Notes under the pieces: model-generated
What the model was told of the DNA's origin: nothing
The model's database searches: none
Seen by the model: only the letters and a program-made list of their open reading frames with translations
Program-made: the position numbers and the translations under genes
Part shown: positions 4,282-19,714 of the stretch, piece by piece
Numbering within the stretch: position 1 is the stretch's first letter
Layout: each line of letters opens with the position of its first letter
Sequence record: NZ_CP102715.1
Length of the DNA stretch: 44,665 nucleotides
Origin: a plasmid
Direction: 5' to 3' (one strand)

Positions 4282-4958
4282 TAGATAAACCCCAATATAT
4301 AATTGTTGCTGGTATTAACGGAGCAGGGAAAAGTACGCTATACGATACATTTCCCTGCTTGTTTGACAAAACAAAACGGATTAACGCTGATGAACTTTTA
4401 AGACAAATGGGTGGCGATTGGCATAAAGATAGTGACAACTTAAAAGCCATGAAAGAAGAAAGCAAACAACTACACTATGCTTTAGATCACCAGCAAAGTA
4501 TTCACGTAGAAACAACACTAGCAGGTAGAGGCAAAGCTCAACTCAATTTGATTGACAAAGCTCACAAAAATGGCTTTGAAGTGACTTTATTGTATGTTGC
4601 TTTGCGAGATGAAAATTTAGCTATCCAAAGGGTCAACGAACGGGTACAAAAAGGTGGGCACGGTGTTCCGGTAGTAACGATCAAGAAACGTTATCAGCAA
4701 TCCAAACATAATTTGCCATTAGTGGCCTTTAAATCTGATAAGGTCATGATTTATGATAATAGCGAAAAGTTTACCCCTGTTTATGCAAGAGAGAAGGGAC
4801 AAGTTTTTAAGAACGATTTGAGGCATTTTCCTTGGATAAACCAAAATATTACTTATCCAGAAAATATGCAAAAACAGTTAAAAAATTTTGTAGATCATAA
4901 CTTAGAAGTTAAGCTAAAAAATAATCCTGAAAATAAAAACGATCGGCCTAGTTATTAG
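4278..4958 (+). CDS. Zeta-toxin family P-loop kinase (Zeta_toxin/AAA_33-like)
   Basis: Walker A AGINGAGKST. The downstream INADELLRQ resembles the zeta DxxR catalytic motif. 226 aa. Translationally coupled to the upstream small ORF. Confidence 0.65.
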   Translation: MIDKPQYIIVAGINGAGKSTLYDTFPCLFDKTKRINADELLRQMGGDWHKDSDNLKAMKEESKQLHYALDHQQSIHVETTLAGRGKAQLNLIDKAHKNGFEVTLLYVALRDENLAIQRVNERVQKGGHGVPVVTIKKRYQQSKHNLPLVAFKSDKVMIYDNSEKFTPVYAREKGQVFKNDLRHFPWINQNITYPENMQKQLKNFVDHNLEVKLKNNPENKNDRPSY

Positions 4959-5226
4959 GTTGATCGTTTTTGAATTTGTTCGGTTTATGCGCATTAACGT
5001 AATTAGCAAATATTTTTAAAAGTTCTTCGGTTTGTTCGACCGAGAGGTTATTAGCTTGGAAGTACTTTTCTAATAAAGCCCCTTTTTGAATTAATCGGCG
5101 AGAACGGTCTTTGCGTGCTTGCCGATTTTCATAGTATTTAGATTGCCGTAATTTAAAATCTTCCCGCTCAATTTTTTGTTTTAAACGCGCTTGTTGTTTA
5201 ACTAATTTTTCATATTGATTAGGCAT
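4948..5226 (-). CDS. DUF3847-like coiled-coil protein, a family frequently adjacent to Firmicutes relaxases
   Basis: The pattern KQQARLKQKIEREDFKLRQSKYYENRQARKDRSRRLIQKGALLEKYF fits DUF3847. AGGAAATTCTATG RBS. Confidence 0.45.
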   Translation of the reverse strand: MPNQYEKLVKQQARLKQKIEREDFKLRQSKYYENRQARKDRSRRLIQKGALLEKYFQANNLSVEQTEELLKIFANYVNAHKPNKFKNDQPNN

Positions 5227-5248
5227 AGAATTTCCTCATCTCGTATGG

Positions 5249-5458
5249 CTAATGATCTACGGACTTTTTCTTTAAAAATTCAGAAAATTGCTGGGCTAAA
5301 AGCTTAATCTGATCGTTAGACAAATTAGTATATTCTAAATTGGCTTGATTGATGATTTGTTTACCTAGCCGTTGTTCAATTCTATTTTTTTCGTCCTTAA
5401 TTTTTTGATTAAGGGCTTTTAATTTAGCTTCTTGTTTTTCTAAGTTACTTTGAGACAT
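5249..5458 (-). CDS. Small coiled-coil hypothetical protein
   Basis: Likely starts at MSQSNLEKQ (GGAGGG RBS), not the longer track ORF. Charged coiled-coil composition. Confidence 0.35.
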   Translation of the reverse strand: MSQSNLEKQEAKLKALNQKIKDEKNRIEQRLGKQIINQANLEYTNLSNDQIKLLAQQFSEFLKKKSVDH

Positions 5459-5594
5459 AACGATCCCTCCAATCATATTAGAAATAATCACCGAAACTAT
5501 ATCATATAGGAAACGTTAAGTCAAAGGATAAAAGTTGAAATAGCGAAGCGGAGGGCATACACTAAAAGTGGAGTTAAGGGAATCAGCAGACCGA

Positions 5595-5650
5595 GTGAAA
5601 CGAGGTCAATGCGCACTTACACACAACAACTAAGTTGGTTGTGTTATTGT
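5595..5650 (-). promoter_or_regulatory. Candidate oriT (MOBQ type). The nick core GTAAGTGCGC is on the minus strand, with an adjacent inverted repeat.
   Basis: Minus strand reads 5'-AACACAACCAACTTAGTTGTTGTGT-GTAAGTGCGC-ATTGACC. The 10-mer TAAGTGCGC is identical to the RSF1010/R1162 and pIP501 nick-region cores (..TAAGTGCGCCCT..). An imperfect IR immediately 5' of it matches the organisation of those oriTs. Confidence 0.55.
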
Positions 5651-5716
5651 GCTAAACCCTTGTATCAGAAGTCGCCGTTGGCAACAACAAAAGCAAACCC
5701 ATAGACCCAAAGAAAG

Positions 5717-7792
5717 ATGGTGACCGACATGGCAATTTTTCACATGAGTTTTAGTAATATTAGTGCTGGTAAAGGACGAAGTGCGATTGCCAGTGCCGCT
5801 TATCGAAGTGGTAAAAAGCTATTCGATCAAAAAGAAGGGCGAAGCTATTTTTATGCCCGCTCGGTTTTGCCAGAAAGCTTTATTTTAACCCCCAAAAATG
5901 CACCAGAATGGGCCAGTGATCGAGAGCGGTTGTGGAATGAAGTCGAAAGAAAAGATCGTAGAGCAAATTCACGCTATGCAAAAGAGTTTAACGTGGCTTT
6001 ACCAGTTGAATTAAGTGAAGATGAACAGAAAGAATTATTGACAAAATATGTACAAGAAAATTTTGTTGATGAGGGTATGGTTGCCGACGTAGCAATTCAT
6101 AGAGATCACCCAGATAATCCGCACGCTCATGTTATGTTAACTAATCGTCCATTTAATCCAGACGGAACATGGGGATTGAAAAGTAAAAGGGAAAATATAT
6201 TAGATGAAAATGGGAACAAGACTTATACAGGAAATAGTCGTTTTCCAAGATCAAGAAAGGTGTGGCTAGTTGATTGGGATAAAAAAGAAAAAATCACTGA
6301 ATGGCGGCACAATTGGGCGGTTAGTGTAAATCAAGTTTTAGCACAAAAAAATATTCCGGATCGGATCAGTGAAAAATCCTTTATCGAGCAGGGAATAGAT
6401 GATACCCCAATGCAACATGAGGGAATCAATAGCAAGCGGTATGAAAGAAAAGAATTTAACCAACAAGTAAAGAACTATCGCAAGGCCAAAGCCAGTTATA
6501 AAAACAACCAAGAAAAAGTAATTAATCGAGGTCATTTAGATAGTCTAAGCAAACACTTCTCGTTTAATGAAAAACGGGTGGTCAATGAGTTAAGTCATGA
6601 ACTAAAAACTTATATTAGTTTGGAAAGTTTAGATGATAAGCGGCGCATGCTATTTAATTGGAAAAACAGCACCTTAATTAAACATGCGGTTGGTGAAGAT
6701 GTGACTAAACAATTATTGACAATTAACCAACAAGAAAGCTCACTCAAAAAAGCAGATGAGCTCTTAAATAAAGTGGTTGATCGCACGACTAAAAAACTTT
6801 ATCCAGAGCTTAATTTTGAACAGACCACGCAAGCTGAAAGACGAGAATTAATTAAGGAAACCGATAGCGAACAAACGATTTTCAAAGGCAGTGAATTAAA
6901 CGAACGTTTAATGAACATTCGTGATGATTTGTTGACCCAACAATTATTGACCTTTACCAAACGGCCATACGTTGGCTGGAAGTTATTAATGCAACAAGAA
7001 AAGGAAGTCAAAATCGAGCTTAAATATACGCTGATGATTCATGACGATAGCTTAGAAAGTCTAGAACACGCTGATCAAGGTCTACTAGAAAAGTATTCAC
7101 CAACCGAGCAGCAAAAGATTACTCGCGCAGTCAAAGATTTGCGAACAATCATGGCTGTGAAGCAAGTTATTCAAACCCAATACCAGGAAGTTTTAAAAAG
7201 AGCCTTTCCTAACGGCGATTTTAATGAATTACCAATGATTAAACAGGAACAGGCCTATACAGCAGTGATGTACTATAATCCAGCTTTAAAACCATGTAAG
7301 GTTGAAACAATCGCACAGTGGCAAGCAAAACCACCACAGGTGTTCAGTCCCCAAGAACATCAACAAGGACTAGCTTATTTATCGGGACAGCTCAGCTTAG
7401 ACCAGTTAGAAAATCATCACCTACAACGGGTTTTAAAGCATGATGGCACTAAACAACTCTTTTTGGGTGAATGCAAAGTCGATCCAACGATTAAGAACAG
7501 TCAGATCGAGAAAATCCAAAAGCAGTTAAAAGAGCAACAAGCCAAGGACGATCAGTACCGAAAAGCAAATATGGGGCATTATCAACCGCTAAATTATAAG
7601 CCAGTTAGTCCAGACTATTACTTAAAGACAGCCTTTAGTGATGCGATTATGACTGTTCTATATGCTCGTGATGAAGATTACCAACGGCAAAAGCAAGAAC
7701 GTGGACTGAAAGAAACCGAGTGGGCAATGACGAAAAAGCAGCGGCAACACCAAACCCGGAACCGGCATGAAGATGGGGGTATGCACTTGTAA
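5717..7792 (+). CDS. traA: MobA/MobL-family conjugative relaxase (MOBQ, TraA-like)
   Basis: N-terminal relaxase domain with the HxDxxNxHxH motif ([13 protein letters not shown]) and [17 protein letters not shown].. start. 691 aa. The actual start may be ATG 5729 (MAIFH). Confidence 0.9.
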
Positions 7793-7875: not shown

Positions 7876-8187
7876 GTGACAAAGAAGCAAGAATGGTTTA
7901 GCTTAGCTCAAGCTAGTCTCAAACTAGAACGAGGTAGTACGTATGTGAGTGTTTGGTTAAGACGGCACCCTAACGAGTTACCAAGTGAAATGCTCATGGA
8001 AACGGGCAAAGTTAAATTAATATCTGAAGATGGTATTGAATGGATTAAAAACCACATAAAAAAAGAGGGCGTCCTCGTCAGCAGTAGAGTTGCTAACGGG
8101 GATCAGCACCTAGAACCGCAACTTCTAGGTGTCACCCTCCTAACAATCCATTTTACCGGGCGGGTTAGGGGAAAGCTAGTTGTTTAG
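7876..8187 (+). CDS. Hypothetical protein, first gene of the T4SS operon. GTG start.
   Basis: GTG preceded by GGAAAGGAG RBS. The C-terminal third overlaps the terminator stem, so the true end is uncertain. Confidence 0.4.
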   Translation: MTKKQEWFSLAQASLKLERGSTYVSVWLRRHPNELPSEMLMETGKVKLISEDGIEWIKNHIKKEGVLVSSRVANGDQHLEPQLLGVTLLTIHFTGRVRGKLVV

Positions 8188-8209
8188 CGTCCCTAACGCG
8201 CTTTTTTTT
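8160..8209 (+). terminator. Rho-independent terminator
   Basis: GCGGGTTAGGG ... CCCTAACGCGC stem (10/11 bp) followed by T8. Confidence 0.55.
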
Positions 8210-8223
8210 GAGGAGGTGATCCA

Positions 8224-8838
8224 ATGAAAGTGGAAAGCTGGCAAGGCATTAATGGCAAGTTAGTTCATGATGAGCAACAGGCAATTGTGGTTGATAATGA
8301 CCAAGCATTAACTGATCAAAAGCAGCTACAAGCGATTTTGGATCAAGATGGTCAGCCAGTTGACGAAGTCCGACAAGCAATGATTAAGAAGACCGTTAAA
8401 CGTCAGCTAAAAACGCCACCATTAAAGCTTAGGGGCTGGTTTAATCGTCATCAAGACAGTCAAAGTGCTAAAAAGGCCGAAAAGTTGGTGAGTGACAAAC
8501 CGACCCATCAATATAAGCAGATCAAAAATGAAATGACCTTTTTTGGTGAGAGTTTCCTGGAAGGCTTCTTAGGCTTCTATGGCTTAGAAGTTGATAACGC
8601 CTTAGGCCGTTACGAACATAATTTGCATGTCTTAGAGACCCAAGAATTAGGCCAGTCAGAAAAAGAGTATTACTTAGCCACGAGTGAAAACGGCCGCGTC
8701 AAATTAGCCACCGATCCATTACCAAGCCAGCAAATTGCCGAGGAACAATTGAACAAGTTCTATCAGCGTGAGCCAGAAGAAACGCAGGCAGAACAAATTC
8801 AATTACGAACATCAGAAGACGATGGGAAGGAGGAATAA
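8224..8838 (+). CDS. Hypothetical conjugation-cluster protein
   Basis: GAGGAGG RBS. 204 aa, acidic. No recognisable motif. Confidence 0.45.
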   Translation: MKVESWQGINGKLVHDEQQAIVVDNDQALTDQKQLQAILDQDGQPVDEVRQAMIKKTVKRQLKTPPLKLRGWFNRHQDSQSAKKAEKLVSDKPTHQYKQIKNEMTFFGESFLEGFLGFYGLEVDNALGRYEHNLHVLETQELGQSEKEYYLATSENGRVKLATDPLPSQQIAEEQLNKFYQREPEETQAEQIQLRTSEDDGKEE

Positions 8839-8839
8839 C

Positions 8840-9175
8840 ATGAAGTTCAGCAAAGTAAAAGCGTTAGCAACAACTGGAGCTACTGCGATTTACTTGGGCC
8901 TGATGAATACTCAGGTTGTTTTGGCAGCGGACGGTGGTGAAGTTCAAAGCAAACTAACTCAAGCTGGTAAGACGATTCAAGGTATTTTAACTGGCTTGGT
9001 CGTTTTAGTTGGGATTTGTGTCGCACTATTTATTATTATCAAAAGAATGCCTGACGCAGACGATCCGCGAGAGAAATCCGAAGTTTATCACGCAGTTGGT
9101 CGGGTAGCTGGTTTAGTGGCCCTAGCGGCAGCGGTTATCTGGCTATTGCCTTGGGTCTACAGCCTATTCACTTAA
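8840..9175 (+). CDS. Small T4SS membrane protein (signal peptide plus 2 TM; TrsC/VirB2-like topology)
   Basis: Start MKFSKVKALATTGATAIYLGLMNTQVVLAADGG.. with AGGAGGAATAAC RBS. Two hydrophobic helices. Confidence 0.5.
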   Translation: MKFSKVKALATTGATAIYLGLMNTQVVLAADGGEVQSKLTQAGKTIQGILTGLVVLVGICVALFIIIKRMPDADDPREKSEVYHAVGRVAGLVALAAAVIWLLPWVYSLFT

Positions 9176-9195
9176 TTTAAAAAGGAGCTTGCCAA

Positions 9196-9558
9196 ATGAA
9201 GAAAGGGAAAGAATTTATCTTCCCAGAGAACGTAGATAAAGATTACGGGATTTGGAAAGACTACACCTTGAAGGATTTTGGCTATGCGGCACTGGCAGGA
9301 CTAGTGGGCTTAATTTTTATTGCGATTCCACCCTATGGTCTGATTTTAGTCCTGATAAAAATAGTGATTGTTGTCTTAGCCATGACGATTGTCATGGCTA
9401 TTTTAACAATTAGGCCAGTTGCGGCGCGGAAGAACATTAAGGTGCGGGATAACTTTAAGTTGAAACGCCGTTATGCCAATAGTCAGAAATTGTTTTACTT
9501 AAAACCGAAGAAGCGAGGTGAACTAAATGCGTTTGAAGAAGAGCAAAACCGCCAATAA
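9196..9558 (+). CDS. VirB3-like small membrane protein (TrsD-like)
   Basis: 120 aa, two adjacent TM helices, positioned directly upstream of VirB4. AAAGGAG RBS. Confidence 0.5.
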   Translation: MKKGKEFIFPENVDKDYGIWKDYTLKDFGYAALAGLVGLIFIAIPPYGLILVLIKIVIVVLAMTIVMAILTIRPVAARKNIKVRDNFKLKRRYANSQKLFYLKPKKRGELNAFEEEQNRQ

Positions 9559-10186
9559 ATCAGTGAAGCTCGATTGGGATTACCAACCGCCTAAAATCAA
9601 TGGTGGCAAAGAAACCATTGATGACATGAGCTTGGTAGTGGGTATGTATGGTAATTACGAAGTTACCAAAACGGGTAATCTCGTTGGCATTTTGGAAGTT
9701 AGCGGGATCAACCTTGATCTACTTAATGAAACCGAACAACAGGACGTCTTTGAGGACTATGGCGCGTTTCTCATGAGTACCTTAGGTGAAGGCGTTGATG
9801 ACACGTTACAGTTCTTAGAACCGACGATTCCTGTCAATATGACGACTTATCTCAATGGTCTCAAACGGCGGTATCTCGCCTTACAAAAAGACCACCCGGA
9901 GCAACAGTTCAAAATCCAACTCATAGCCAGTTACTTGGATCATTTTACTAAAGTCCAAGAATCCAAAAACATGACGACTAAACAACATCTGCTAATCGTT
10001 AAAGTGCCAATTAAGGACAAAAGCGTTAAAAGCTTAAACTTAGCGGTCGCTCATTTAGACGAAAAGATCGAACAGGTTAAACGGGATATTGAAAATGCGT
10101 TAACAGACTTTGATGTGACGGCCAAAATTTTGACTAGTCAGGAAGTCCAAGAAATTTTAAAGAACTTAATTAATTTTAATGGATAG
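9527..10186 (+). CDS. VirB4 N-terminal domain encoded as a separate ORF
   Basis: VGMYGNYEVTKTGNLVGILEVSGINLDLLNETEQQDVFEDYGAFL resembles the CagE/TrbE/VirB4 N-terminal region. It stops 11 nt before the ATPase ORF and is in a different frame. Confidence 0.55.
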   Translation: MRLKKSKTANKSVKLDWDYQPPKINGGKETIDDMSLVVGMYGNYEVTKTGNLVGILEVSGINLDLLNETEQQDVFEDYGAFLMSTLGEGVDDTLQFLEPTIPVNMTTYLNGLKRRYLALQKDHPEQQFKIQLIASYLDHFTKVQESKNMTTKQHLLIVKVPIKDKSVKSLNLAVAHLDEKIEQVKRDIENALTDFDVTAKILTSQEVQEILKNLINFNG

Positions 10187-10197
10187 GGGGAAATAGT

Positions 10198-12216
10198 ATG
10201 GGTTTTGGTGATAAGATCATTGATTTGTTTATGCCAACTAAAAAAGAAAGACAGCCAAGTAATCATGAACTAGCGGTTAGCGAGCCCAAACCGGAGATTG
10301 AGGATTTTACCAAGTTGATTGATCGCGACAGCTTGCATTCACTATTTCCGTTTAGCTGGGAACAGTACCCTACCTATGTCCAGTCGGGCGAGAATTTTAT
10401 TCGAGTGTTAGCGATCGCTGACTATCCCAAGCGGGTGTATGGCAACTGGCTATCAGAGCTAAAGCGCAAAAAAGGCGTTATCGATATTGTGCAATATATC
10501 GACAGCGCCAGTAACAATTCAATGATTACCTATTACAAGAAGACGATTCAAAATAAGGAAGCACAGAAGCTCAATACGTTCGACCCGTATAAAAAGAAGA
10601 TTCTGCAAAATTATATTGATTCAGCCAACATGCAACTAGATAAATACCTTGATAATTCTACCACATTTGTGTACCAACATATGCTCATTTATCTGCGGGC
10701 CAACAGTTTAGTAGAACTAGACGACTTAACCGAAAACGTTAAGAATACGTTGATTAAGCTACAGATGAAACCGCTAGTACCCGTTAAAGCAACCTTTCAA
10801 GCATTTTGGTCAACCATGCCAATTAACGAGAACCTCATGGGGGATTACACGTACAAAGAAAGTAATACCGAAGTTGCCAGCAGCATGTTTCCCTTTGACG
10901 ACGCGGAAATTTTGGACTTGAAGCCGAGAAGCGATATTGAAGGGGTTAACAAAGATACTAACAGCTTAATTGCCGTGGATATGTTGGATCGCAACAAGAC
11001 CCTGAACCAGAATATGGTTGTTATTGGTACTTCCGGTGTGGGTAAAACAACCTACATGATCCAGAAGATTCTAAGATATGCCATTCAAGACTATCAGCTC
11101 TACATTATTGATCCAGAAAATGAATATACCAAAATTGTCGAAGCTTTAGGTGGCGCAGTCTTGCACTTAACTTCTAATGCGAAGTACAAAATTAACCCGC
11201 TACAAATTTTTTCTGAAGAAATCCTAAGCGCTGATGAAGCGGTCATGAATCTTGATTTACTAGTTAAAGATAAAATTCAGCGATTAAAAGGGTTCTTTGA
11301 AGTCCTTAAAACCGGGATTACCCAAGTTGAGCTGGCAATTCTTGATGATGTGGTTAAACAGGCCTACGTCAACAGTGGTGTTTTGAAATACAGCCGCTTA
11401 AAAGAGATTAAAGACGATCAGTGGCCGACCCTATCCAACGTTTATGACGAATTGGAAAAACTAGCTGACAAGGACGCCGACAAATTCAGTCGGGTTAAAG
11501 ACTTCTACTATATCTTAGGCAGCTATACCCATGGTTCTAACAGCCTGTTTGACGGGCACACCAACGTCAACCTAAAAGGAAAGATCATTTCTTTTGATCT
11601 AAAACCCCTACAAAGTGAACAGGAAGTCCAATCAGCGGCTTATCTGAATACCTTCCAGTATTTGTGGGACGAAATCACCAAGGATCGGCATAGCCGCAAG
11701 AAATTGTTTGTCGATGAATTTCACTTTTTGACCTTGCACAAAGCAGCCGCCACCTTTTTCCACCAGGCCTACAAGCGGTTTAGAAAGTATAATGCTGGGG
11801 CGATTGCCGGAACACAGCAAATTCAAGATGTGATCGAAGGAACAACTGATACCGGTCAAAATATAGGTGAAGCCATTATTGGGAACTCCTATACCAAAGT
11901 GTTCTTTGGTCTTGACGGTAAAGGTGTCGATGATGTCATTACGAAACTACGCATGACGTTCTCGGATAAAGAAAAGAAGCTACTAGAACGTCGTAGACAA
12001 GGTGAAGCCCTGATGATCTATGGTAGCCAACGCGCCTTTATGCGTGTCGAGTTGACCGAAGAAGAACTACGGCTAATTGACCCAGAAGCTTACCAAGAAA
12101 AATACAACCGTGAGACAGCCGGGCAACCGGACTATCAAAAGCGCGTGGTCTTAACTCCCAGTGAAATTGACGCCTTGACCACCACCGAGGAGGAAGGAGG
12201 GGCTTTAAATGAGTAA
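10198..12216 (+). CDS. VirB4-family T4SS ATPase (TrsE/TraE-like), middle and C-terminal domains
   Basis: Walker A VIGTSGVGKTT, Walker B LFVDEFH. Length 672 aa. Own RBS TAGGGGGA. Confidence 0.85.
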   Translation: MGFGDKIIDLFMPTKKERQPSNHELAVSEPKPEIEDFTKLIDRDSLHSLFPFSWEQYPTYVQSGENFIRVLAIADYPKRVYGNWLSELKRKKGVIDIVQYIDSASNNSMITYYKKTIQNKEAQKLNTFDPYKKKILQNYIDSANMQLDKYLDNSTTFVYQHMLIYLRANSLVELDDLTENVKNTLIKLQMKPLVPVKATFQAFWSTMPINENLMGDYTYKESNTEVASSMFPFDDAEILDLKPRSDIEGVNKDTNSLIAVDMLDRNKTLNQNMVVIGTSGVGKTTYMIQKILRYAIQDYQLYIIDPENEYTKIVEALGGAVLHLTSNAKYKINPLQIFSEEILSADEAVMNLDLLVKDKIQRLKGFFEVLKTGITQVELAILDDVVKQAYVNSGVLKYSRLKEIKDDQWPTLSNVYDELEKLADKDADKFSRVKDFYYILGSYTHGSNSLFDGHTNVNLKGKIISFDLKPLQSEQEVQSAAYLNTFQYLWDEITKDRHSRKKLFVDEFHFLTLHKAAATFFHQAYKRFRKYNAGAIAGTQQIQDVIEGTTDTGQNIGEAIIGNSYTKVFFGLDGKGVDDVITKLRMTFSDKEKKLLERRRQGEALMIYGSQRAFMRVELTEEELRLIDPEAYQEKYNRETAGQPDYQKRVVLTPSEIDALTTTEEEGGALNE

Positions 12217-13627
12217 ACTAAACCAGCTATTAAATATCGAGGTCGGCACGTTCAAGCGACAGGGGAACAAGTTAATTCTCGAACTCAATCACAATCAGTT
12301 TCGATACGACCAGTTGAGTGAGCTAAACGAATTAAAACAAGCTGATTCCAAGTTCTTGCAGTTGGTTAACGTGGTTGAGCAAGACCAGAAGGTCGTTCTA
12401 ACTTATACCTTGCCGGATAAGGTCAGATCATTAAAGGACTTGCCACATGAAAATAAGGCGATCCGGGCAGCCATTGCGAAAGAAATTATGGCGCAAAATG
12501 TGGTTAACGATAGCCAGTATCACATTGCGTTGAACCCTGCCAACCTATGGTATTACCCCATGCAGCATGTTTGGTACGCTTACCGGGCCAATGAACTTAT
12601 GCCTTATGATGACAAACATAGCAATTTAGCTAAATACAAAGCGCTGATTCTATTTTGTTTGACGGGGACGCCCTATGAACGGCTACTAAGCAATCCTCAA
12701 GAAGCCCTAGCTAAACACCCTGATGACTATTTACAACAAGTAGCTAAAGCCGCGTCGTTAAATGAGTTAACGGAAGTGGTTAACGGCATTGAGGACTTCG
12801 TGAGCTATCACGAATGGCAGGAAGTTGAAACCGCCCAACAGAAAACCAAACAACGATTATGGTTGAGCGTGGCCGTGGTGGTGGTTATGGCCGTTTTGGC
12901 TGTCGGCTTAGTTCATAAAAGTGACGAACGGCAATATCAAAGCTTAGCTAACCAGAACCAAGCCCAAGTTACTCGTTTAAAGTACAATAACCAAATTCAG
13001 ACAGCTTTAAACAATCACCAATGGTCGAAAGCAAAAAAGACCATGCAGAAAGCTGGTTATAGCAAAAACAGTCAAGTTCAAACATTCTTAAAACATAAAC
13101 AGTATCAGCAAGCCTTAAACGTTGACCCAGGTCAGTTGAACAAGGTTGTTAATGCGGCTTATGCCAAAAAAGATAGCGGTCAAGTGGCCGATTGGCAGTT
13201 ACCCACTAAGGCGACAAGTAAGCAAAAAGACCAATTGAAACTCGAAAAAGCGATTGTTAACTATAACACCAATACGCTCAATAACCAATTATCCTTTACG
13301 ACGAACGCTGATGTTTTATTGAGAATGGGACAAGCCTTCCTCGCCCATAACGATACGCAAGACGCCCAGATCGTCCAAACCAAGTTAGCCGGCGTGAACA
13401 GTCCTAAAGCTAAGTACCTCAAAGCGCTATTAAGTCTCAACTCTGCTAAGAAAGAAGTTAGCGACGCCCAAAAGAAGTTAGATGACGCCAACAAAATTGA
13501 TGATAGTAAAGATAAGGATAAAGACAAGAAGGTGGATTCAGCCAAGTCTGATTTAACGAATGCCCAAAACGATCAGCAGGCGGCCCAAAAAAAGGTCGAT
13601 CAGGCCAAGCACAAAGTGGGTGATTAA
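12209..13627 (+). CDS. T4SS membrane protein with central TM and C-terminal coiled-coil/KD-rich tail (TrsF-like)
   Basis: 472 aa. Single TM LWLSVAVVVVMAVLAVGLV. GGAGG RBS. Position matches TrsF/TraF. Confidence 0.45.
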   Translation: MSKLNQLLNIEVGTFKRQGNKLILELNHNQFRYDQLSELNELKQADSKFLQLVNVVEQDQKVVLTYTLPDKVRSLKDLPHENKAIRAAIAKEIMAQNVVNDSQYHIALNPANLWYYPMQHVWYAYRANELMPYDDKHSNLAKYKALILFCLTGTPYERLLSNPQEALAKHPDDYLQQVAKAASLNELTEVVNGIEDFVSYHEWQEVETAQQKTKQRLWLSVAVVVVMAVLAVGLVHKSDERQYQSLANQNQAQVTRLKYNNQIQTALNNHQWSKAKKTMQKAGYSKNSQVQTFLKHKQYQQALNVDPGQLNKVVNAAYAKKDSGQVADWQLPTKATSKQKDQLKLEKAIVNYNTNTLNNQLSFTTNADVLLRMGQAFLAHNDTQDAQIVQTKLAGVNSPKAKYLKALLSLNSAKKEVSDAQKKLDDANKIDDSKDKDKDKKVDSAKSDLTNAQNDQQAAQKKVDQAKHKVGD

Positions 13628-14782
13628 ATGCAGGTATTGTCATTTGAATATAAGAAAAAGAAGTGGAAATTGATTGCTTATATTGTGGGTGGCGCCCTTC
13701 TGCTAATCATCTTGTTAATCGCCGCGCTTACTGGTCAATTGCAAGAAAACAGTTGTGATAACTCAACCACCACAGAGACGCAATTAGATAGTAAGAGCAT
13801 GACAGAAAATGCCAAAAATATCTATGCGCACTGGAAACAAAAATATGGTGCGACCCCACAAGCGGCCGCCGGTATCTTGGGGGTCTTACAACTGGAAAGT
13901 CGGCTTGATCCCAAGTCCGTTAATTCAAGTTCCGGGGCCACGGGATTAGCCCAGTGGTTAGGAGGTCGAAAGGATAAGCTGGAAGACTTAGCCCACAAAG
14001 AAAACAAACCAGCGACGAACCTTGGCGTGCAGTTGGACTATCTCGATCAAGAATTGAACAGTAGTTACTATGCGTCAAACAAGCAGATATTTAAATATAC
14101 AGATGTGCATAAAGCGACCAAAGAATGGTTAATGGATTATGAGGGTATGAGTAAGAACCCGGAACAGTGGTATTTAAGCCAAAGATACGGTTATGCCGAT
14201 CATTGGTATTCCGTGTTGGGTGCAAGTGATCCCGTGGCCGGTAATACGTTAGATAATGCAAGTTCCGGCGATCTGACCGAGTTAGGTTGTGATAGTGACC
14301 CGAGCTATTCCGGTGGCAGCATTGTTAAAAACGCGGAAAGTATGAAGGGCGACTTCTATTATGTTCAAACCCACCCTAGCCCCGATTTAGGTAGCGATTT
14401 AAAGAATCCTAACAAAACCGGTGGGACAGATTGTTCAGGCTTTGTCTGGTTAGCCTTGAATAAGGCTGGTTACAAGGTACCGGCCAACATGGGCTGGTTT
14501 ACCGGATCAATGGCCAGTGACGCCAAAGGCAGCCATCAATATCTGAAACAGATCAGTGAAAATGACGCAAAGGCCGGCGATATTGTCATCGTCAATCAAG
14601 GTGCGGGAGCCGGAAACAACGGTCACACTGCCATTCTGCTAGATAAATGGCAAGGTAAAGCCACTAAGATCATTGAACAAGGTGGCGTCGGTGATAAGGT
14701 TAACGAAAGCACTTTTGGCACCGCCTTTTATAGCTTACTAAGTGGTAGCGATGTAACGTTAGCCCGGCCAATCAAGAAGTAA
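13628..14782 (+). CDS. VirB1-like peptidoglycan hydrolase (lytic transglycosylase plus CHAP domain; TrsG/TraG-like)
   Basis: N-terminal TM. Lysozyme-like region YAHWKQKYGATPQAAAGILGVLQLESRLDP..GATGLAQW. C-terminal CHAP motif with Cys (GGTDCSGFVW) and His (NNGHTAILL). Confidence 0.8.
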   Translation: MQVLSFEYKKKKWKLIAYIVGGALLLIILLIAALTGQLQENSCDNSTTTETQLDSKSMTENAKNIYAHWKQKYGATPQAAAGILGVLQLESRLDPKSVNSSSGATGLAQWLGGRKDKLEDLAHKENKPATNLGVQLDYLDQELNSSYYASNKQIFKYTDVHKATKEWLMDYEGMSKNPEQWYLSQRYGYADHWYSVLGASDPVAGNTLDNASSGDLTELGCDSDPSYSGGSIVKNAESMKGDFYYVQTHPSPDLGSDLKNPNKTGGTDCSGFVWLALNKAGYKVPANMGWFTGSMASDAKGSHQYLKQISENDAKAGDIVIVNQGAGAGNNGHTAILLDKWQGKATKIIEQGGVGDKVNESTFGTAFYSLLSGSDVTLARPIKK

Positions 14783-14796
14783 GGAGGAACCAGCAA

Positions 14797-15414
14797 ATGA
14801 AGCGTAGCGTGGTTTTAAGTATTGCGATTGGTAGTTTGATCTTAATCATGTCATTAGGGGCGAATGCCTATCAACATAGCCAAGTTAAACAGGCACAACA
14901 GCAGATCAGTCGCTTACAACAGCAGAAGCGACAAGTTAACCAGCAATTGACTAAAGCCAACCAACAAAAGCAGTTATTGAGCACCCAAATTGACAGTTAT
15001 AAGACCTACCAAAATAATAAAGATAAAAGTCCGGCTGAAATTAGCTTCAATACAGTGGTCACAAAGTTCTTTAAGGTCATGAATAACTTTAAGCCCAAGA
15101 CCTACGGCCAGCGTAAAGATGGCGTGAAAGACTTGATTTCCGACAAGCTATATCAGCAATACTTTTCAAATAAGGGCACGTATGGTGACAGCAATAGTGT
15201 TTCAGCCAAATTAGATCAGCTGAACCTGTATACACAAAGTAAGCAGGGCCCAAATATGAAGGGCTTGGCCGTTGTCAGTTACGAAAGTAAGAGTGGCGAC
15301 AACGACTGGCAAAAGGCGACGGTACTTTATCAGGTGACCTTCGATACCACCACGGATCGAATCACCGCAGTCCAAAATTTAGGTAGTAGCTTTAAAGCCA
15401 GTGACCTTAATTAA
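14797..15414 (+). CDS. Secreted/membrane-anchored T4SS protein (TrsH-like, coiled-coil plus NTF2-like C-domain; possibly VirB8-like)
   Basis: N-terminal TM/signal, Q-rich coiled coil. GGAGG RBS. Confidence 0.4.
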   Translation: MKRSVVLSIAIGSLILIMSLGANAYQHSQVKQAQQQISRLQQQKRQVNQQLTKANQQKQLLSTQIDSYKTYQNNKDKSPAEISFNTVVTKFFKVMNNFKPKTYGQRKDGVKDLISDKLYQQYFSNKGTYGDSNSVSAKLDQLNLYTQSKQGPNMKGLAVVSYESKSGDNDWQKATVLYQVTFDTTTDRITAVQNLGSSFKASDLN

Positions 15415-15769
15415 GCGGGTTGGTAAGGCCCTAGCGGTAATCGTGGTGGTTTTAGCCGTTAGCGGGTTTGCTGGTCATCAATACGTCAATCACGTGGAAA
15501 AACAGCGGCCAGTTGTGACGCTGGCTAAGCACCCTGAAAAAGTGTTGTTCTTCTATCGTGATGATTGCCCGGACTGCCAAGCTATTTTTCACCGAATCTA
15601 TTGGCACAACGTCATTAGCCATAACGTTGTTTTTATTAACATGAATCAATCGCAGAATCGGCACTACATTCAGCAATATCAATTAACGTCAGTCCCAACC
15701 TTGATCCATGGCAAGCAACGGTACACCGGCACTAACCAAAAAAGGATTAAACAGATAGTAGGTGATTAG
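15401..15769 (+). CDS. Membrane-anchored thioredoxin-like CxxC protein (thiol:disulfide oxidoreductase)
   Basis: N-terminal TM then FFYRDDCPDCQAIF, a CPDC active-site motif in thioredoxin-fold context. Confidence 0.55.
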   Translation: MTLIKRVGKALAVIVVVLAVSGFAGHQYVNHVEKQRPVVTLAKHPEKVLFFYRDDCPDCQAIFHRIYWHNVISHNVVFINMNQSQNRHYIQQYQLTSVPTLIHGKQRYTGTNQKRIKQIVGD

Positions 15770-16240
15770 ATGAAAGACAAATTATTAAACAGCATTAAAG
15801 CTAGTTGGCCGTATTTACTAACACTAATCATTGGCTTGTATTTAGCGGAGATTTTAGCTGGCGCTGTCATGGCCTTGTCCCGTTATAAGCTAACCTTTGC
15901 GGATCATATGCCAACCGTATTAAAACAATTAGCTTTACACCCTTGGCACTATTACAACTTGTATTTGGGCCAAAAGAACCCAGTACTAATTATTGTCAGT
16001 GTCGCCGTGGTCCTATACACCATCTATTTTGCCTTGAAACGAAATAGCAAACATAAATCGTGGGAAACTGCGGACACTGAAACCCACGGAAGTGCGACCT
16101 GGGGCAATCTAAAAGAATTGAGCGACCATTACTTTAGTATCACTGCTAAAGACCTCACCACAGCGTTTAACAGGAGCACTACAACAGAAATATTAGAGGC
16201 ATTAACAAAACAAGAAACACAATCCAAGACAGACAAGTGA
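15770..16240 (+). CDS. N-terminal membrane domain of the type IV coupling protein, encoded separately
   Basis: Two TM helices followed by ETHGSATWGNLKEL, the HGSArW motif that follows the TM region in VirD4/TraG-family T4CPs. Confidence 0.5.
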   Translation: MKDKLLNSIKASWPYLLTLIIGLYLAEILAGAVMALSRYKLTFADHMPTVLKQLALHPWHYYNLYLGQKNPVLIIVSVAVVLYTIYFALKRNSKHKSWETADTETHGSATWGNLKELSDHYFSITAKDLTTAFNRSTTTEILEALTKQETQSKTDK

Positions 16241-16255
16241 AAGGAAGTAAGAAGC

Positions 16256-16426
16256 ATGAACAGACCAGATTTATTAGTACGAATAGTTACGATCATCACG
16301 TCGTTAATTGCGATAGTTTTGTTTCTATTTCAGGGTTGGAACACACCTACTTTTGTATTTACAGTTATCACAGTCATTTTATCTTTCATTTATCAGTTAA
16401 TCAGAATACAGATGAAAAAGAAGTAA
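16256..16426 (+). CDS. Small (56-aa) two-TM hydrophobic peptide in the gap between the T4CP halves
   Basis: ATG 16256 with AAGGAAG RBS. Peptide MNRPDLLVRIVTIITSLIAIVLFLFQGWNTPTFVFTVITVILSFIYQLIRIQMKKK. Not in the track (<60 aa). Confidence 0.3.
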   Translation: MNRPDLLVRIVTIITSLIAIVLFLFQGWNTPTFVFTVITVILSFIYQLIRIQMKKK

Positions 16427-16469
16427 ATCAGAAAAGTCATCTAAAGCTAACCACATTGGAGGTAAACGC

Positions 16470-18020
16470 ATGAATGGGACAATTTTAGGGATCGTGGATA
16501 AACGGATTGTTTACCAGAATAATAGCACCAAACCAAATCGGAATATCTTTGTGGTTGGGGGCCCAGGATCGTATAAGACCCAATCAGTCGTGATTACCAA
16601 CCTGTTTAATGAAACGGAGAACAGTATTGTCGTAACCGACCCGAAAGGTGAATTATACGAAAAGACGGCCGGTATCAAACTAGCCCAGGGTTATCAAGTG
16701 CATGTCGTCAACTTTGCCAACATGGCGCATAGTGATCGCTACAATCCTTTTGATTATATTCAACGGGATATTCAAGCTGAAACCGTGGCAACAAAGATCG
16801 TGCAAAGTGAAAATGCCGAAGGTAAAAAAGACGTGTGGTTCAGTACCCAACGCCAACTTTTGAAGGCACTAATCCTGTTTGTCATGAACCACCGGTCACC
16901 AGAACAACGAAATTTGGCGGGTGTGACCCAAGTGTTGCAAGAAAACGATGTGGAAGCCGAGGAAAAGGGTGCGGATAGTCCGCTAGATACCTTGTTTCTT
17001 GATCTAACTATGACTGATCCAGCAAGACGCGCTTATGAGTTAGGGTTCAAAAAGTCCAAGGGGGAAATGAAAGCCAGCATTATTGAAAGCCTGTTGGCGA
17101 CCATTTCGAAGTTCGTCGATCAAGAAGTGGCTGATTTTACCAGCTTTTCAGACTTTGATTTAAAAGATATTGGCAAAGCCAAAGTTGTGCTATATGTGAT
17201 TATTCCGGTGATGGATAATACCTACGAAAGCTTCATCAATCTGTTTTTCTCACAATTATTTGATGAATTATACAAATTAGCCGCCGATCATCACGCTAAA
17301 TTGCCCCACCAAGTCGACTTTATCCTTGATGAATTTGTCAATTTAGGGAAGTTTCCCAAGTACGAAGAATTTCTAGCAACGTGCCGGGGGTACGGTATTG
17401 GCGTGACGACCATTTGTCAGACCTTAACCCAGCTACAAGCCTTGTATGGCAAGGAAAAGGCTGAGAGTATCTTAGGTAATCATGCGGTTAAAATTTGCTT
17501 GAATGCCGCTAATGATGTGACCGCTAAATACTTTAGTGATCTGTTAGGAAAATCAACCGTGAAAGTGGAAACTGGTAGTGAGAGTACCAGTCATAGCAAG
17601 GAAGAAAGCCATAGTAAGAGCGATAGTTACAGCTATACGAGCCGTTCGCTGATGACACCTGATGAAATCATGCGTATGCCTGAAGATCAGAGCTTATTAA
17701 TCTTTAGTAATGCCCGACCAGTCAAAGCGATAAAAGCGTTCCAATTTAAACTATTTCCAGGAGCCGATCATTTGGTTAACTTGTCACAAAACGATTATCA
17801 AGGCCAACCAGAAGCCAGTCAAGAAACCAACTTTAAGAAAAAAGTAGAAAAATGGAAAGCAAAATTAAAGGAGACTGCTCAAAAAGAAGCCGCAAACGAG
17901 ATGTCTCAAACAGATGAGGAGCAACAACAGGACAACCTAGATAGCGACTTAGAGAGAGTTTCAAATAAAGATAGTCAAACAGAGGCGCCAGAAGAAGACG
18001 ACAACAACTTATTTGGATAA
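16470..18020 (+). CDS. VirD4/TraG-family type IV coupling protein, ATPase domain (TrsK-like)
   Basis: GTILGIVDK..NIFVVGGPGSYKTQSVV Walker A. Walker B VDFILDEFVNLG. GGAGG RBS. Confidence 0.85.
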   Translation: MNGTILGIVDKRIVYQNNSTKPNRNIFVVGGPGSYKTQSVVITNLFNETENSIVVTDPKGELYEKTAGIKLAQGYQVHVVNFANMAHSDRYNPFDYIQRDIQAETVATKIVQSENAEGKKDVWFSTQRQLLKALILFVMNHRSPEQRNLAGVTQVLQENDVEAEEKGADSPLDTLFLDLTMTDPARRAYELGFKKSKGEMKASIIESLLATISKFVDQEVADFTSFSDFDLKDIGKAKVVLYVIIPVMDNTYESFINLFFSQLFDELYKLAADHHAKLPHQVDFILDEFVNLGKFPKYEEFLATCRGYGIGVTTICQTLTQLQALYGKEKAESILGNHAVKICLNAANDVTAKYFSDLLGKSTVKVETGSESTSHSKEESHSKSDSYSYTSRSLMTPDEIMRMPEDQSLLIFSNARPVKAIKAFQFKLFPGADHLVNLSQNDYQGQPEASQETNFKKKVEKWKAKLKETAQKEAANEMSQTDEEQQQDNLDSDLERVSNKDSQTEAPEEDDNNLFG

Positions 18021-18424: not shown

Positions 18425-18443
18425 ACGAAGGAGGGGGTTTAAA

Positions 18444-19283: not shown

Positions 19284-19297
19284 GAGGAAAAATAGTT

Positions 19298-19708: not shown

Positions 19709-19714
19709 ACGAAC

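What the first reader, a model, noticed from the sequence alone, without database searches (positions are those of the whole stretch)
5595..5650. MOBQ-type oriT with an RSF1010/pIP501-like nick core on the strand opposite the relaxase gene
On the minus strand the sequence reads IR(ACACAACCAAC-TTA-GTTGTTGTGT)-GTAAGTGCGC-ATTGACC. The core TAAGTGCGC is shared with the nick regions of RSF1010/R1162 (..GGTAAGTGCGCCCT..) and pIP501 (..CATAAGTGCGCCCTT..). Both are processed by MobA/MobL-family relaxases, the family of the adjacent 691-aa relaxase. The IR immediately 5' of the core reproduces the hairpin-plus-nick layout. This predicts the nicked strand and hence the polarity of transfer: the T4SS genes enter the recipient last.
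Basis: partly seen in the sequence, partly recalled or inferred. Interest (0 to 1): 0.55.

Follow-up and report, generated by a model that had tools for sequence, protein, structure and literature searches.

The report
Transfer origin of a Lactobacillus conjugative plasmid
This short hairpin-plus-nick-site sequence is very probably the point where the plasmid is cut to start transfer into another bacterium; it is an ordinary member of a well-known type, but related plasmids show it comes in many hairpin "address" versions that also sit on plasmids wrongly typed as non-transferable.

Summary
The minus strand at 5644-5604 reads ACACAACCAAC-TTA-GTTGTTGTGT-GTAAGTGCGC-ATTGACC, 117 nt upstream of a MobA/MobL + NES_C relaxase gene.

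The 9-mer alone is not significant: 0.34 are expected per window. The context is decisive.
- Position, strand and stem-to-nic spacing (9 nt) match the experimentally defined pSK41 oriT and a pIP501-type Inc18 plasmid. Strand and position also match IncQ1/RSF1010.
- In 71 related loci the 17-nt core is about invariant. The hairpin occurs in at least 6 fully compensated sequence classes, and in at least 12 with orphan copies.
- Chance 14-mer hits in metagenomes lack the hairpin.
- Seven relaxase-less plasmids carry 1-5 orphan copies.

"Opposite strand to the relaxase" is the canonical MOBQ layout, not an oddity. The polarity inference (relaxase and T4SS genes enter last) follows from it.

Verdict: a predicted MOBQ oriT, nicked at G5612|C5611. 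It is a new member of a known kind.

Beyond the finding, hairpin class co-varies with a 30-aa relaxase cassette (aa 150-180), while the 525 nt between them does not. This suggests orthogonal oriT-relaxase specificity classes. No experiment was possible.

The parts
5634..5644 (-). 5' arm of the oriT inverted repeat (ACACAACCAAC): outer 7 nt ACACAAC 5644-5638, bulged C5637, inner AAC 5636-5634
   Evidence: (I7). The position is homologous to the IR next to nic in pSK41. Five of the 7 outer pairs show compensatory changes across relatives.
5631..5633 (-). Hairpin loop TTA (TTTA in most class-A relatives)
5621..5630 (-). 3' arm of the inverted repeat (GTTGTTGTGT). Its last base, T5621, lies 9 nt 5' of the predicted nic.
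   Evidence: The stem-to-nic spacing is the same in pSK41, an Inc18 plasmid and all Lactobacillaceae classes.
5611..5620 (-). Nick core GTAAGTGCG|C. The predicted nic lies between G5612 and C5611.
   Evidence: Identical to the RSF1010/pSK41 core TAAGTGCG|C. At least 95% invariant in 71 unique related upstream regions. The nic position is placed by analogy only.
5575..5610 (-). Conserved block 3' of nic (ATTGACCTCGTTTCACTCGGTCTGCTGATTC...). It replaces the canonical CCCTTA. It is possibly a binding site for an accessory protein or the relaxase, and possibly part of the leader of the tra transcript.
   Evidence: Conservation profile. Retained in L. garvieae at 69% relaxase identity. Only about 8 nt of it are kept in the shortest orphan copies.
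5729..7792 (+). Cognate MOBQ relaxase gene (687 aa from ATG 5729; the ORF is open from 5717). It has catalytic Tyr25 and an HxH motif (NPHAHV).
   Evidence: Pfam MobA_MobL and NES_C_h. PDB 4HT4 and 2NS6. pLF3872 annotation.
6176..6268 (+). Relaxase cassette aa 150-180 ([31 protein letters not shown]), a candidate hairpin-specificity determinant
   Evidence: 21 of 23 class-diagnostic residues fall here. The cassette is class-specific and this was replicated in 10 further loci. Association with hairpin class forms two islands.
5249..5458 (-). First small divergent ORF (69 aa, coiled-coil-like, no Pfam match), the first gene to enter the recipient. It is a candidate relaxosome accessory protein.
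   Evidence: Synteny with small divergent ORFs in pSK41, Inc18 and lactococcal plasmids.
4948..5226 (-). Second small divergent ORF (92 aa, weak DUF3847 match below the Pfam cut-off)
   Evidence: The same weak DUF3847 match is found at the equivalent Inc18 ORF.
5496..5524 (-). Promoter-like site TTGACT-17-TG-TATAGT for the divergent small ORFs
   Evidence: 10 of 12 matches, with an extended -10.
5535..5563 (+). Promoter-like site TTGAAA-17-TACACT, a candidate tra promoter whose transcript would read through oriT
   Evidence: 9 of 12 matches. The region is conserved. Its function is inferred.
7876..21850 (+). tra/T4SS operon downstream of the relaxase gene: CagC/VirB2-like, VirB4-like ATPase, peptidoglycan hydrolase, coupling protein, TrbL/VirB6-like protein, topoisomerase
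   Evidence: Pfam. Co-linear annotation in pLF3872.

Best explanation
The sequence 5650-5595 on the minus strand is the origin of transfer (oriT) of a pIP501/pSK41/pMRC01-type conjugative plasmid of Lactobacillaceae.

Proposed mechanism (inferred):
1. The adjacent relaxase (N-terminal MobA/MobL HUH domain, catalytic Tyr25) binds the hairpin formed by 5644-5621.
2. The 9-nt single-stranded tail GTAAGTGCG is threaded into the active site.
3. The relaxase cleaves between G5612 and C5611 and becomes covalently linked to the 5' phosphate of C5611.
4. The coupling protein and T4SS (encoded at 7876-21850) pilot the relaxase with the minus strand, 5'->3', into the recipient.
5. The small divergent ORFs, the toxin-antitoxin genes and the replication genes enter first. 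The T4SS genes, the relaxase gene and finally the hairpin enter last.
6. The trailing hairpin plus core is then the substrate for the rejoining reaction.

The hairpin sequence probably serves as the address that matches this oriT to its own relaxase. The site probably also acts as an operator for relaxase autoregulation of the tra operon, as reported for pIP501 and pUC11B.

Shown here: sequence, layout, homology, conservation, covariation and orphan copies. Inferred: nicking, the exact nic position, polarity, address specificity and autoregulation.
For: 1. Relaxase family and catalytic motifs.

2. The architecture matches experimentally characterised systems.
- The pSK41 oriT 45-mer lies on the strand opposite nes, with nic about 107 nt upstream of nes and a small divergent ORF beyond it.
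- A pIP501-type Inc18 plasmid has the same layout.
- In an IncQ1 plasmid the RSF1010 oriT lies on the mobC strand, opposite mobA/mobB.
- The pUC11B oriT was mapped by mobilisation to a 39-nt IR plus nick region upstream of its relaxase gene (PMC11097999).

3. The core AAGTGCG sits on the opposite strand about 100 nt upstream of the relaxase gene in 68 of 71 unique related loci. Positions 5604-5620 are at least 95% invariant, while the IR is the most variable stretch.

4. The IR exists in sequence classes with fully compensated arms. 98.3% of cells are paired, 5 of 7 pairs have changes on both sides, and the covariation score is 0.607 against 0.19 in shuffles (0 of 500 reach it). Slid registers fall to 24-70% paired.

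5. Natural control: the 14-mer GTAAGTGCGCATTG was found at 123 sites in metagenome contigs. 100 have no anchored stem. 14 have a stem of at least 6 bp, and 7 of these sit 116-117 nt from a relaxase gene on the other strand.

6. Seven small plasmids without any relaxase homologue carry 1-5 copies of hairpin plus core, in some cases only about 45 nt of homology. This is what is expected of a cis-acting transfer site used in trans.

7. Hairpin class is tied to the relaxase cassette aa 150-180 in 85 of 86 loci. The 525 nt between the two show almost no class association: 2 of 152 informative sites, against 34 of 64 in the cassette.
Against: - No experiment was done. Nicking, the nic position and mobilisation are all placed by analogy.
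- Downstream of nic the sequence is CATTGACC rather than the consensus CCCTTA. One of the seven upper-case consensus positions is not met.
- The window's stem is modest (7 bp, a bulge, then 3 bp) and its folding energy is not exceptional.
- The covariation count used an alignment that I fitted to the structure. Loops were padded with N and the left arm was chosen as the best complement, which inflates pairing.
- The hairpin-cassette association could partly reflect physical linkage. One locus (L082) breaks it.
- Whether this particular plasmid is transfer-proficient is unknown.
Confidence: 0.85

Rival explanations
1. The element is mainly a transcriptional control site for the divergent promoters: an operator, or a leader structure of the tra mRNA. 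Its resemblance to nick regions would then be inherited but no longer used for transfer.
For: - The site lies between two promoter-like sites and would be part of the relaxase leader.
- In pIP501 the relaxase binds the tra promoter, which overlaps oriT (PMC10877727).
- A second conserved IR (5671-5685) lies in the same leader.
Against: - Orphan copies on relaxase-less plasmids sit in unrelated contexts and in both orientations, without the promoters or the relaxase gene.
- The invariant part is exactly the nick core of experimentally nicked oriTs.
- No Rfam family matches.
- An operator role is compatible with oriT function and is not an alternative to it.
Confidence: 0.07
2. It is a decayed or silent oriT relic. 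The plasmid is no longer self-transmissible, or it uses another, unrecognised origin.
For: - Relatives with damaged cores exist. L003, with a 99% identical relaxase, has a 1-nt deletion at the nick G plus arm mutations. L045 and L053 have G->A at the nick.
- Many family members are typed only 'mobilizable'.
Against: - The window's core and arms equal the class-A consensus shared by 28 loci.
- The relaxase ORF is intact and a full T4SS gene set is present.
- No second core-like site exists in the window.
Confidence: 0.06
3. It is a chance co-occurrence of a 9-mer and a short inverted repeat, with no function.
For: The 9-mer alone is expected 0.34 times per window, and the hairpin energy is not exceptional.
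Against: - Position, strand and spacing agree with reference oriTs.
- The core is invariant while the stem shows compensatory turnover across about 100 loci.
- Chance 14-mer hits lack the stem.
Confidence: 0.01

Closest known systems
oriT of staphylococcal pSK41/pGO1/pLW1043, processed by the NES relaxase
   Same: - The relaxase has the same domain architecture (MobA_MobL + NES_C_h).
- The core is TAAGTGCG|C.
- The hairpin ends 9 nt before nic.
- The nick strand is opposite to the relaxase gene.
- Nic lies about 107-117 nt upstream of the start codon.
- A small divergent ORF lies beyond oriT.
   Different: - The hairpin sequence differs (GCGAACG/CGTTCGC against ACACAAC/GTTGTGT).
- The base before the core is A rather than G.
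- The sequence 3' of nic is CCCTTACGGG rather than CATTGACCTCG.
- The relaxase N-terminal domain is only about 32% identical.
- The window relaxase has about 20 extra residues where the class-specific cassette lies.
oriT of pIP501 (Inc18) and of lactococcal pMRC01/pUC11B
   Same: - The tra region is co-linear (PMC3609814; Pfam).
[quoted passage not shown]
- pUC11B: a 39-nt minimal oriT was mapped by mobilisation (PMC11097999).
- The relaxase is autoregulatory (PMC10877727; highlights of PMC10873654).
   Different: - Those oriTs keep the canonical ...GCG|CCCTTA.
- The Lactobacillaceae group and L. garvieae have ...GCG|CATTG(A/T)CC.
- Relaxase identity is 43-47%.
oriT of IncQ plasmids RSF1010/R1162, processed by MobA
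   Same: - The core is GGTAAGTGCG|CCC with an IR immediately 5' of it.
- The nick strand is opposite mobA and the same as the divergent small gene mobC.
- MobA is the founding member of the relaxase family (2NS6).
   Different: - The stem ends 8 nt rather than 9 nt from nic.
- The plasmid is mobilisable only and has no T4SS.
- The relaxase is fused to a primase.
- The host is Gram-negative.
pWBG749-family oriT subfamilies and oriT mimics in Staphylococcus aureus (O'Brien et al. 2015, PMC4652767)
   Same: This is the same kind of population structure.
- The core is conserved while one inverted repeat comes in distinct variants that define specificity.
- Relaxase-less plasmids carry 1-3 different oriT variants and are mobilised in trans.
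- Here, orphan copies of several classes sit on single small plasmids.
   Different: - The relaxase family and the core (CTTATGCTCTT) are unrelated.
- Specificity there is conferred by a separate RHH protein, SmpO. Here the candidate determinant is a cassette inside the relaxase.
- Function was shown experimentally there, not here.

Membership tests
RSF1010-type (MOBQ) oriT | Nick-region consensus NcgtNtaAgtGCGC, the part up to and including the base after nic (Grohmann 2003, as quoted in PMC10333310 and PMC6008420) | tested here: met
   The window reads GTGTGTAAGTGCGC. The 9-mer taAgtGCGC matches exactly, and all five upper-case positions are met. The string is identical to the RSF1010 and pSK41 cores as verified in PLSDB.
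RSF1010-type (MOBQ) oriT | 3' part of the consensus, cCTta | tested here: not met
   The window has ATTGA, so only 2 of 5 positions match and the upper-case C is T. The variant CATTGACC is itself at least 95% conserved in the Lactobacillaceae group. One relative has CCTTGACC (L080).
RSF1010-type (MOBQ) oriT | Inverted repeat immediately 5' of the nick region, ending 8-9 nt from nic | tested here: met
   The stem ends at T5621, 9 nt before the predicted nic. pSK41 and Inc18 also have 9 nt, and RSF1010 has 8. Covariation supports pairing.
RSF1010-type (MOBQ) oriT | Adjacent cognate MobA/MobL relaxase with a catalytic Tyr and an HxH metal-binding motif | tested here: met
   PF03389 E = 4e-89. Tyr25 aligns with NES residue 25, and NPHAHV aligns with NES NPHAHL.
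RSF1010-type (MOBQ) oriT | Nick strand opposite to the relaxase coding strand, so that the relaxase gene is transferred last | tested here: met
   The orientation is the same in pSK41, Inc18, IncQ1, 68 Lactobacillaceae loci and 7 metagenome contigs.
RSF1010-type (MOBQ) oriT | Site- and strand-specific cleavage by the relaxase, and cis-acting mobilisation | not testable with these tools
   This needs an in vitro nicking assay and a mating assay. Orphan copies on relaxase-less plasmids are only indirect support.
pWBG749-type oriT (MOB-MG) | Core CTTATGCTCTT with a branched IR1-IR3 hairpin, and SmpP/SmpO proteins | tested here: not met
   The core and the relaxase family are different. This system is an analogue in population structure only.

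The most novel reading that the evidence does not exclude
The window's oriT may be one 'address' in a system of at least 12 orthogonal oriT classes spread through Lactobacillales plasmids.
- All classes share the invariant nick core GTAAGTGCG|C.
- They differ in a fully compensated hairpin.
- Each hairpin would be read by a matching 30-residue basic cassette (aa 150-180) inside the relaxase, rather than by a separate accessory protein.
- Relaxase-less plasmids typed 'non-mobilizable' collect several addresses so as to hitch-hike on different conjugative helpers. One of them is a tet(M)/erm(B) plasmid with five sites.
Probability: 0.4. Interest if true: 0.6.

Novelty: new member of a known kind. 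Interest (0 to 1): 0.4.

Why it matters
**For this plasmid.** The result fixes the cis-acting transfer site, the transferred strand and the gene order of entry. A fragment of about 45-60 bp could be used to make vectors mobilisable among lactobacilli.

**More broadly.** The core region is present in 1198 of 72,556 PLSDB plasmids, and 345 of those are typed non-mobilizable. Orphan copies sit on small plasmids, including one carrying tet(M) and erm(B).

Published probiotic safety assessments rely on oriTfinder and conclude that there is 'no oriT, limited transfer potential' (PMC12483243). oriTfinder also missed the experimentally proven pUC11B oriT (PMC11097999). Recognising this oriT family would change such assessments.

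The hairpin-cassette co-variation offers a testable code for relaxase-oriT specificity in MOBQ systems.

Tried and rejected
- **Motif enrichment.** TAAGTGCGC is not enriched in the window, either exact or with one mismatch. The 9-mer alone proves nothing.
- **Single-sequence folding.** It is not significant on either strand.
- **RNAalifold on a plain MAFFT alignment.** It missed the hairpin because loop-length differences put the left arms out of register. I replaced it with an N-padded alignment and explicit pair counts, with the stated bias.
- **Rfam.** No family matches in 5100-5900.
- **RSF1010.** Accession NC_001740 is not in the plasmid collection. An IncQ1 plasmid found with the recalled oriT sequence was used instead.
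- **Papers not held.** The pWCFS103 paper and the NES structure paper are not in the library. I therefore could not check whether this exact oriT was already annotated, or which NES loops touch the hairpin.
- **Exact-string literature searches** for the window's variant found nothing relevant.
- **AlphaFold on relaxase residues 1-230 without an alignment.** It gave an unusable model (pLDDT 40), so no structural placement of the cassette was possible.
- **Co-resident plasmids.** I counted by hand, whether plasmids in one genome avoid sharing a hairpin class. About 6 same-class against 14 different-class pairs were found, where about 32% same-class is expected at random. There is no signal.
- **The 70-aa ORF next to orphan oriTs.** It is not homologous to the window's small divergent ORF and has no Pfam match.
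- **Rolling-circle replication origin.** Not pursued. The plasmid has a theta-type RepA, and the core matches conjugative nick sites.

Full report
**1. What is in the sequence**

Read on the minus strand, 5650->5595 is ACAATAACACAACCAACTTAGTTGTTGTGTGTAAGTGCGCATTGACCTCGTTTCAC. The parts are as follows.
- The inverted repeat (IR) has a perfect outer stem ACACAAC (5644-5638) / GTTGTGT (5627-5621). A bulged C5637 follows, then an inner AAC/GTT and a TTA loop.
- Directly 3' of the stem come G5620, TAAGTGCG (5619-5612), C5611 and ATTGACC (5610-5604).
- The relaxase ORF lies on the + strand. It is open from 5717, but the likely start is ATG 5729 (MAIFHM..., preceded by GGTGA). This matches the 687-aa annotation in the 98.8% identical plasmid pLF3872.
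- On the other side, a strong promoter-like site on the minus strand (TTGACT-17-TGnTATAGT) precedes two small divergent ORFs (5458->5249 and 5226->4948).

**2. Is it more than chance?**

The pieces alone are weak.
- The exact 9-mer is expected 0.34 times in a window of this size and composition.
- With one mismatch allowed there is no enrichment.
- The hairpin's free energy is ordinary (z = -1.1).

The combination is not weak.
- A perfect stem of at least 7 bp anchored at one fixed position occurs at 0.13-0.19% of positions.
- The 17-mer GTAAGTGCGCATTGACC is unique in the window even with 3 mismatches.
- The site sits in the single intergenic region next to the relaxase gene.

The decisive evidence is comparative (sections 4-6).

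**3. The neighbouring genes**

The relaxase has Pfam MobA_MobL (E = 4e-89) and the NES C-terminal helical domain (E = 5e-41). It aligns to the NES relaxase domain solved with oriT DNA (4HT4, E = 2e-23) and to R1162 MobA (2NS6, E = 5e-10). Tyr25 and the NPHAHV histidine motif are in place.

Downstream, all on the + strand up to 21850, lie the transfer genes:
- a CagC/VirB2-like protein;
- a VirB4-like ATPase;
- a peptidoglycan hydrolase;
- a VirD4-type coupling protein;
- a TrbL/VirB6-like protein;
- a type IA topoisomerase.

This is the pIP501/pMRC01 gene order, which the literature also reports for pWCFS103 and pKB290-1 (PMC3609814).

**4. Comparison with experimentally defined origins**

- **pSK41.** I recalled the pSK41/pGO1 oriT 45-mer and confirmed it at 100% identity in pSK41 and pLW1043. 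In pSK41 it lies on the strand opposite nes. Nic is about 107 nt upstream of the nes start, and a small divergent ORF lies beyond it.
- **Inc18.** A pIP501-type Inc18 plasmid, with a 661-aa relaxase like TraA, reads ACGAAGTAACGAAGTTACTGCGTATAAGTGCG|CCCTTAG. This is also on the strand opposite the relaxase gene.
- **IncQ1.** The RSF1010 oriT (again recalled, then confirmed at 100%) lies on the mobC strand, opposite mobB/mobA.

Spacing also agrees. The stem ends 9 nt before nic in pSK41, in Inc18 and in the window, and 8 nt before nic in RSF1010. Nic lies 107-117 nt upstream of the relaxase start in pSK41, a lactococcal plasmid and the Lactobacillaceae loci.

The difference lies 3' of nic: CATTGACC here against the consensus CCCTTA.

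**5. Conservation and covariation**

The region is extremely common. The stretch 5200-6300 matches 997 PLSDB plasmids. The 81-nt oriT region matches 1198 plasmids, almost all from Lactobacillales.

Eighty loci from different species, with relaxases 84-99% identical, were fetched.
- In 68 of 71 unique upstream regions the core AAGTGCG sits on the opposite strand about 100 nt upstream.
- The three exceptions carry single lesions at or next to the nick base.
- Column conservation shows 5604-5620 at 95% or more, while the IR (5621-5650) is the most variable part of the whole intergenic region.
- Nevertheless every variant is still an inverted repeat ending at the same position.

The hairpin arms by class:

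| Class | Arms | Note |
|---|---|---|
| A | ACACAAC / GTTGTGT | the window |
| B | ACCCCAC / GTGGGGT | |
| C | ACATAGAA / TTCTATGT | |
| D | ACGTCATC / GATGACGT | |
| E | ACTCCAA / TTGGAGT | |
| F | ACACCAC / GTGGTGT | L. garvieae |

On an alignment of 34 distinct sequences the pair counts were as follows.
- 98.3% of cells are paired.
- 5 of 7 pairs have changes on both sides.
- The covariation score is 0.607 against 0.19 +/- 0.02 in shuffles (0 of 500 reach it).
- Sliding the partner by 1-3 columns drops pairing to 24-70%.

Caveat: I built that alignment to fit the structure. Loops were padded with N and the left arm was chosen as the best complement, so the percentage paired is biased upward. 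The number of compensated pair types is less affected.

**6. A natural control, and orphan copies**

A scan of metagenome contigs for the 14-mer GTAAGTGCGCATTG returned 120 contigs with 123 sites.
- 100 sites have no stem at the anchored position. These are chance hits, largely soil and marine.
- 14 sites have a stem of at least 6 bp, and 13 of them look like the Lactobacillales element.
- 7 of these lie 116-117 nt from a relaxase gene on the other strand.

The hairpin is thus a property of the element, not of the 14-mer.

Seven small plasmids that hit the oriT region have no relaxase homologue by tblastn, yet carry 1-5 hairpin-plus-core sites.
- A 6.3-kb L. sakei plasmid has one class-A site.
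- An 8.7-kb L. plantarum plasmid has three sites within about 200 nt, in both orientations.
- L. lactis p223D has three sites of three classes, one with the canonical CCCTTAGG.
- C. farciminis pK68-8-A carries tet(M) and erm(B) and is typed non-mobilizable. It has five sites of four classes.

In the shortest orphans, homology to the window shrinks to about 45 nt: hairpin, core and about 8 nt beyond nic. That size is close to the pUC11B minimal oriT.

This mirrors the oriT mimics of S. aureus pWBG749-family plasmids. There a conserved core is combined with IR2 variants, and plasmids carry 2-3 variants (PMC4652767). With the orphans and metagenome hits I count at least 12 hairpin classes. In almost all of them the stem opens with A-C (A-T in a lactococcal class) and closes with G-T (A-T in that class).

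**7. A link between hairpin class and the relaxase**

In a neighbour-joining tree of 76 relaxase N-terminal domains the hairpin classes form clades, with one exception, L082.

Of 23 class-diagnostic amino-acid positions in the first 250 residues, 21 fall in residues 150-180. That basic segment is nearly invariant within a class and different between classes. In the phmmer alignment to NES it coincides with an insertion of about 20 residues relative to NES.

| Class | Cassette aa 150-180 |
|---|---|
| A | [31 protein letters not shown] |
| B | IKSKKQYILDxNGNKxYTGTSKYPKSRKILM |
| C | [30 protein letters not shown] |
| D | QKTKTEYILDSHGNKTKTPAG-NVRNRKIWL |

The pairing held in all 10 further loci checked, from PLSDB and metagenomes.

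At the DNA level, the informative sites with normalised mutual information above 0.5 with hairpin class were distributed as follows:

| Region | Sites above 0.5 / informative sites |
|---|---|
| Hairpin | 15 / 26 |
| The 525 nt between hairpin and cassette | 2 / 152 |
| Cassette | 34 / 64 |
| Downstream 860 nt | 0 / 199 |
| Upstream | 0 / 83 |

Two associated islands separated by unassociated sequence argue for co-adaptation rather than plain linkage. This is still an inference from 66 loci that share ancestry, and L082 shows that the two can be separated.

I could not place the cassette on a structure. A single-sequence AlphaFold model was unusable (pLDDT 40), and the NES structure paper is not held. 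From memory only, NES clamps its hairpin with two loops. Whether the cassette corresponds to one of them is untested.

**8. Mechanism proposed**

By homology with NES, MobA and TraA:
1. The relaxase binds the extruded hairpin.
2. It positions the 9-nt tail GTAAGTGCG in the HUH active site and cuts G5612|C5611.
3. It stays attached to C5611 through Tyr25.
4. The minus strand is transferred 5'->3', that is, towards lower coordinates. The small ORFs, the toxin-antitoxin genes and the replication genes lead. The T4SS genes, the relaxase gene and the hairpin trail.
5. The trailing hairpin plus core is the rejoining substrate.

The relaxase is likely to repress tra transcription from the same site. 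A candidate + strand promoter at 5535-5563 would read through it, and autoregulation is reported for pIP501 and pUC11B.

Only sequence, layout, homology and evolutionary pattern are shown here. The chemistry is inferred.

**9. Rivals**

- A purely regulatory element is contradicted by the orphan copies in unrelated contexts.
- A decayed relic is unlikely, because the window equals the class-A consensus and has intact transfer genes. Relics do exist among relatives, however (L003).
- Chance is excluded by the comparative data.

**10. Novelty and score**

This is a predicted oriT of a well-known type, homologous in position and orientation to characterised oriTs. I rate it a new member of a known kind.

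I could not check whether papers on pWCFS103, pLgLA39 or plca36 had already marked this sequence. They are not in the library. Searches for the exact variant string found nothing relevant.

The extension is more interesting and of practical weight for safety assessment of food and probiotic strains. It consists of many compensated hairpin classes on an invariant core, a matching relaxase cassette, and multi-oriT plasmids that lack a relaxase and are typed non-mobilizable. It remains analogous to known staphylococcal biology and is untested.

Interest 0.4.

Noticed in passing
L087 5110-5187; L089 (three sites within about 200 nt near the record start); L090 4805, 4904(-), 9459, 15871, 24259; L091 12555(-); L092 1111; L093 5002(-), 7479(-), 13256: Small plasmids with no relaxase homologue carry 1-5 orphan hairpin-plus-core sites, often of different hairpin classes. 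One of them is the tet(M)/erm(B) plasmid pK68-8-A, which MOB-suite types as non-mobilizable. 345 of the 1198 PLSDB plasmids that hit the oriT region are typed non-mobilizable.
   Followed up: partly
window 6176-6268 (relaxase aa 150-180): This is a hypervariable basic 30-residue cassette. It holds 21 of the 23 class-diagnostic residues of the N-terminal domain. It co-varies with hairpin class in 85 of 86 loci, while the 525 nt between cassette and hairpin do not. It is a candidate specificity determinant.
   Followed up: partly
window 5671-5685: A second conserved inverted repeat lies in the relaxase leader: GTCGCC-GTT-GGCAAC here, with one mismatch. The majority form is GTCGCCGATGGCGAC. It is GTTGCCAAAGGCAAC in L. 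garvieae and GTTGCCGAAGGCAAC next to an orphan oriT in L087, so the arms co-vary. Its function is unknown.
   Followed up: no
L003 (Limosilactobacillus oris, relaxase 99% identical), upstream region equivalent to window 5604-5644: The core has a 1-nt deletion at the nick G (TAAGTGC-CATTG), and both arms are mutated. This looks like a natural oriT knock-out next to an intact-looking relaxase N-terminus. L045 (chromosomal) and L053 have G->A at the nick base.
   Followed up: partly
L087 4467-5054 and 5412-5624; the same pair in L089, L090 (twice) and L091; the recombinase alone in L088 and L093, and the 70-aa ORF alone in L092: Orphan oriTs are repeatedly flanked by a 195-aa tyrosine recombinase (Phage_integrase, E = 5e-18) on one side and a 70-aa ORF with no Pfam match on the other, often next to a toxin-antitoxin pair. 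The 70-aa ORF is not homologous to the window's small divergent ORF.
   Followed up: partly
window 5717-5731: The ORF opens at ATG 5717. The conserved N-terminus MAIFHM starts at ATG 5729, behind a GGTGA ribosome-binding site. The relaxase is therefore probably 687 aa, not 691 aa.
   Followed up: yes
window 4948-5458 (-); L083 1659-2218 (-): Two small divergent ORFs are syntenic across the Lactobacillaceae, lactococcal and Inc18 plasmids. The second ORF gives a weak DUF3847 match below the Pfam cut-off. They are the first genes to enter the recipient and have a strong extended -10 promoter at 5524-5496. They are possible relaxosome accessory or establishment proteins.
   Followed up: partly
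L082 (Levilactobacillus cerevisiae): This is the only locus that combines a class-B hairpin with a class-D relaxase cassette. It is a natural recombinant that could show whether mismatched pairs still work.
   Followed up: no
window 20000-44665: The cargo half of the window is a mosaic. No PLSDB plasmid covers more than 45% of it, and the best partial matches are plca36-like and L. plantarum plasmids at 94-97% identity. It includes a Cna B-type adhesin gene. The window is therefore not an already deposited plasmid in that collection.
   Followed up: no
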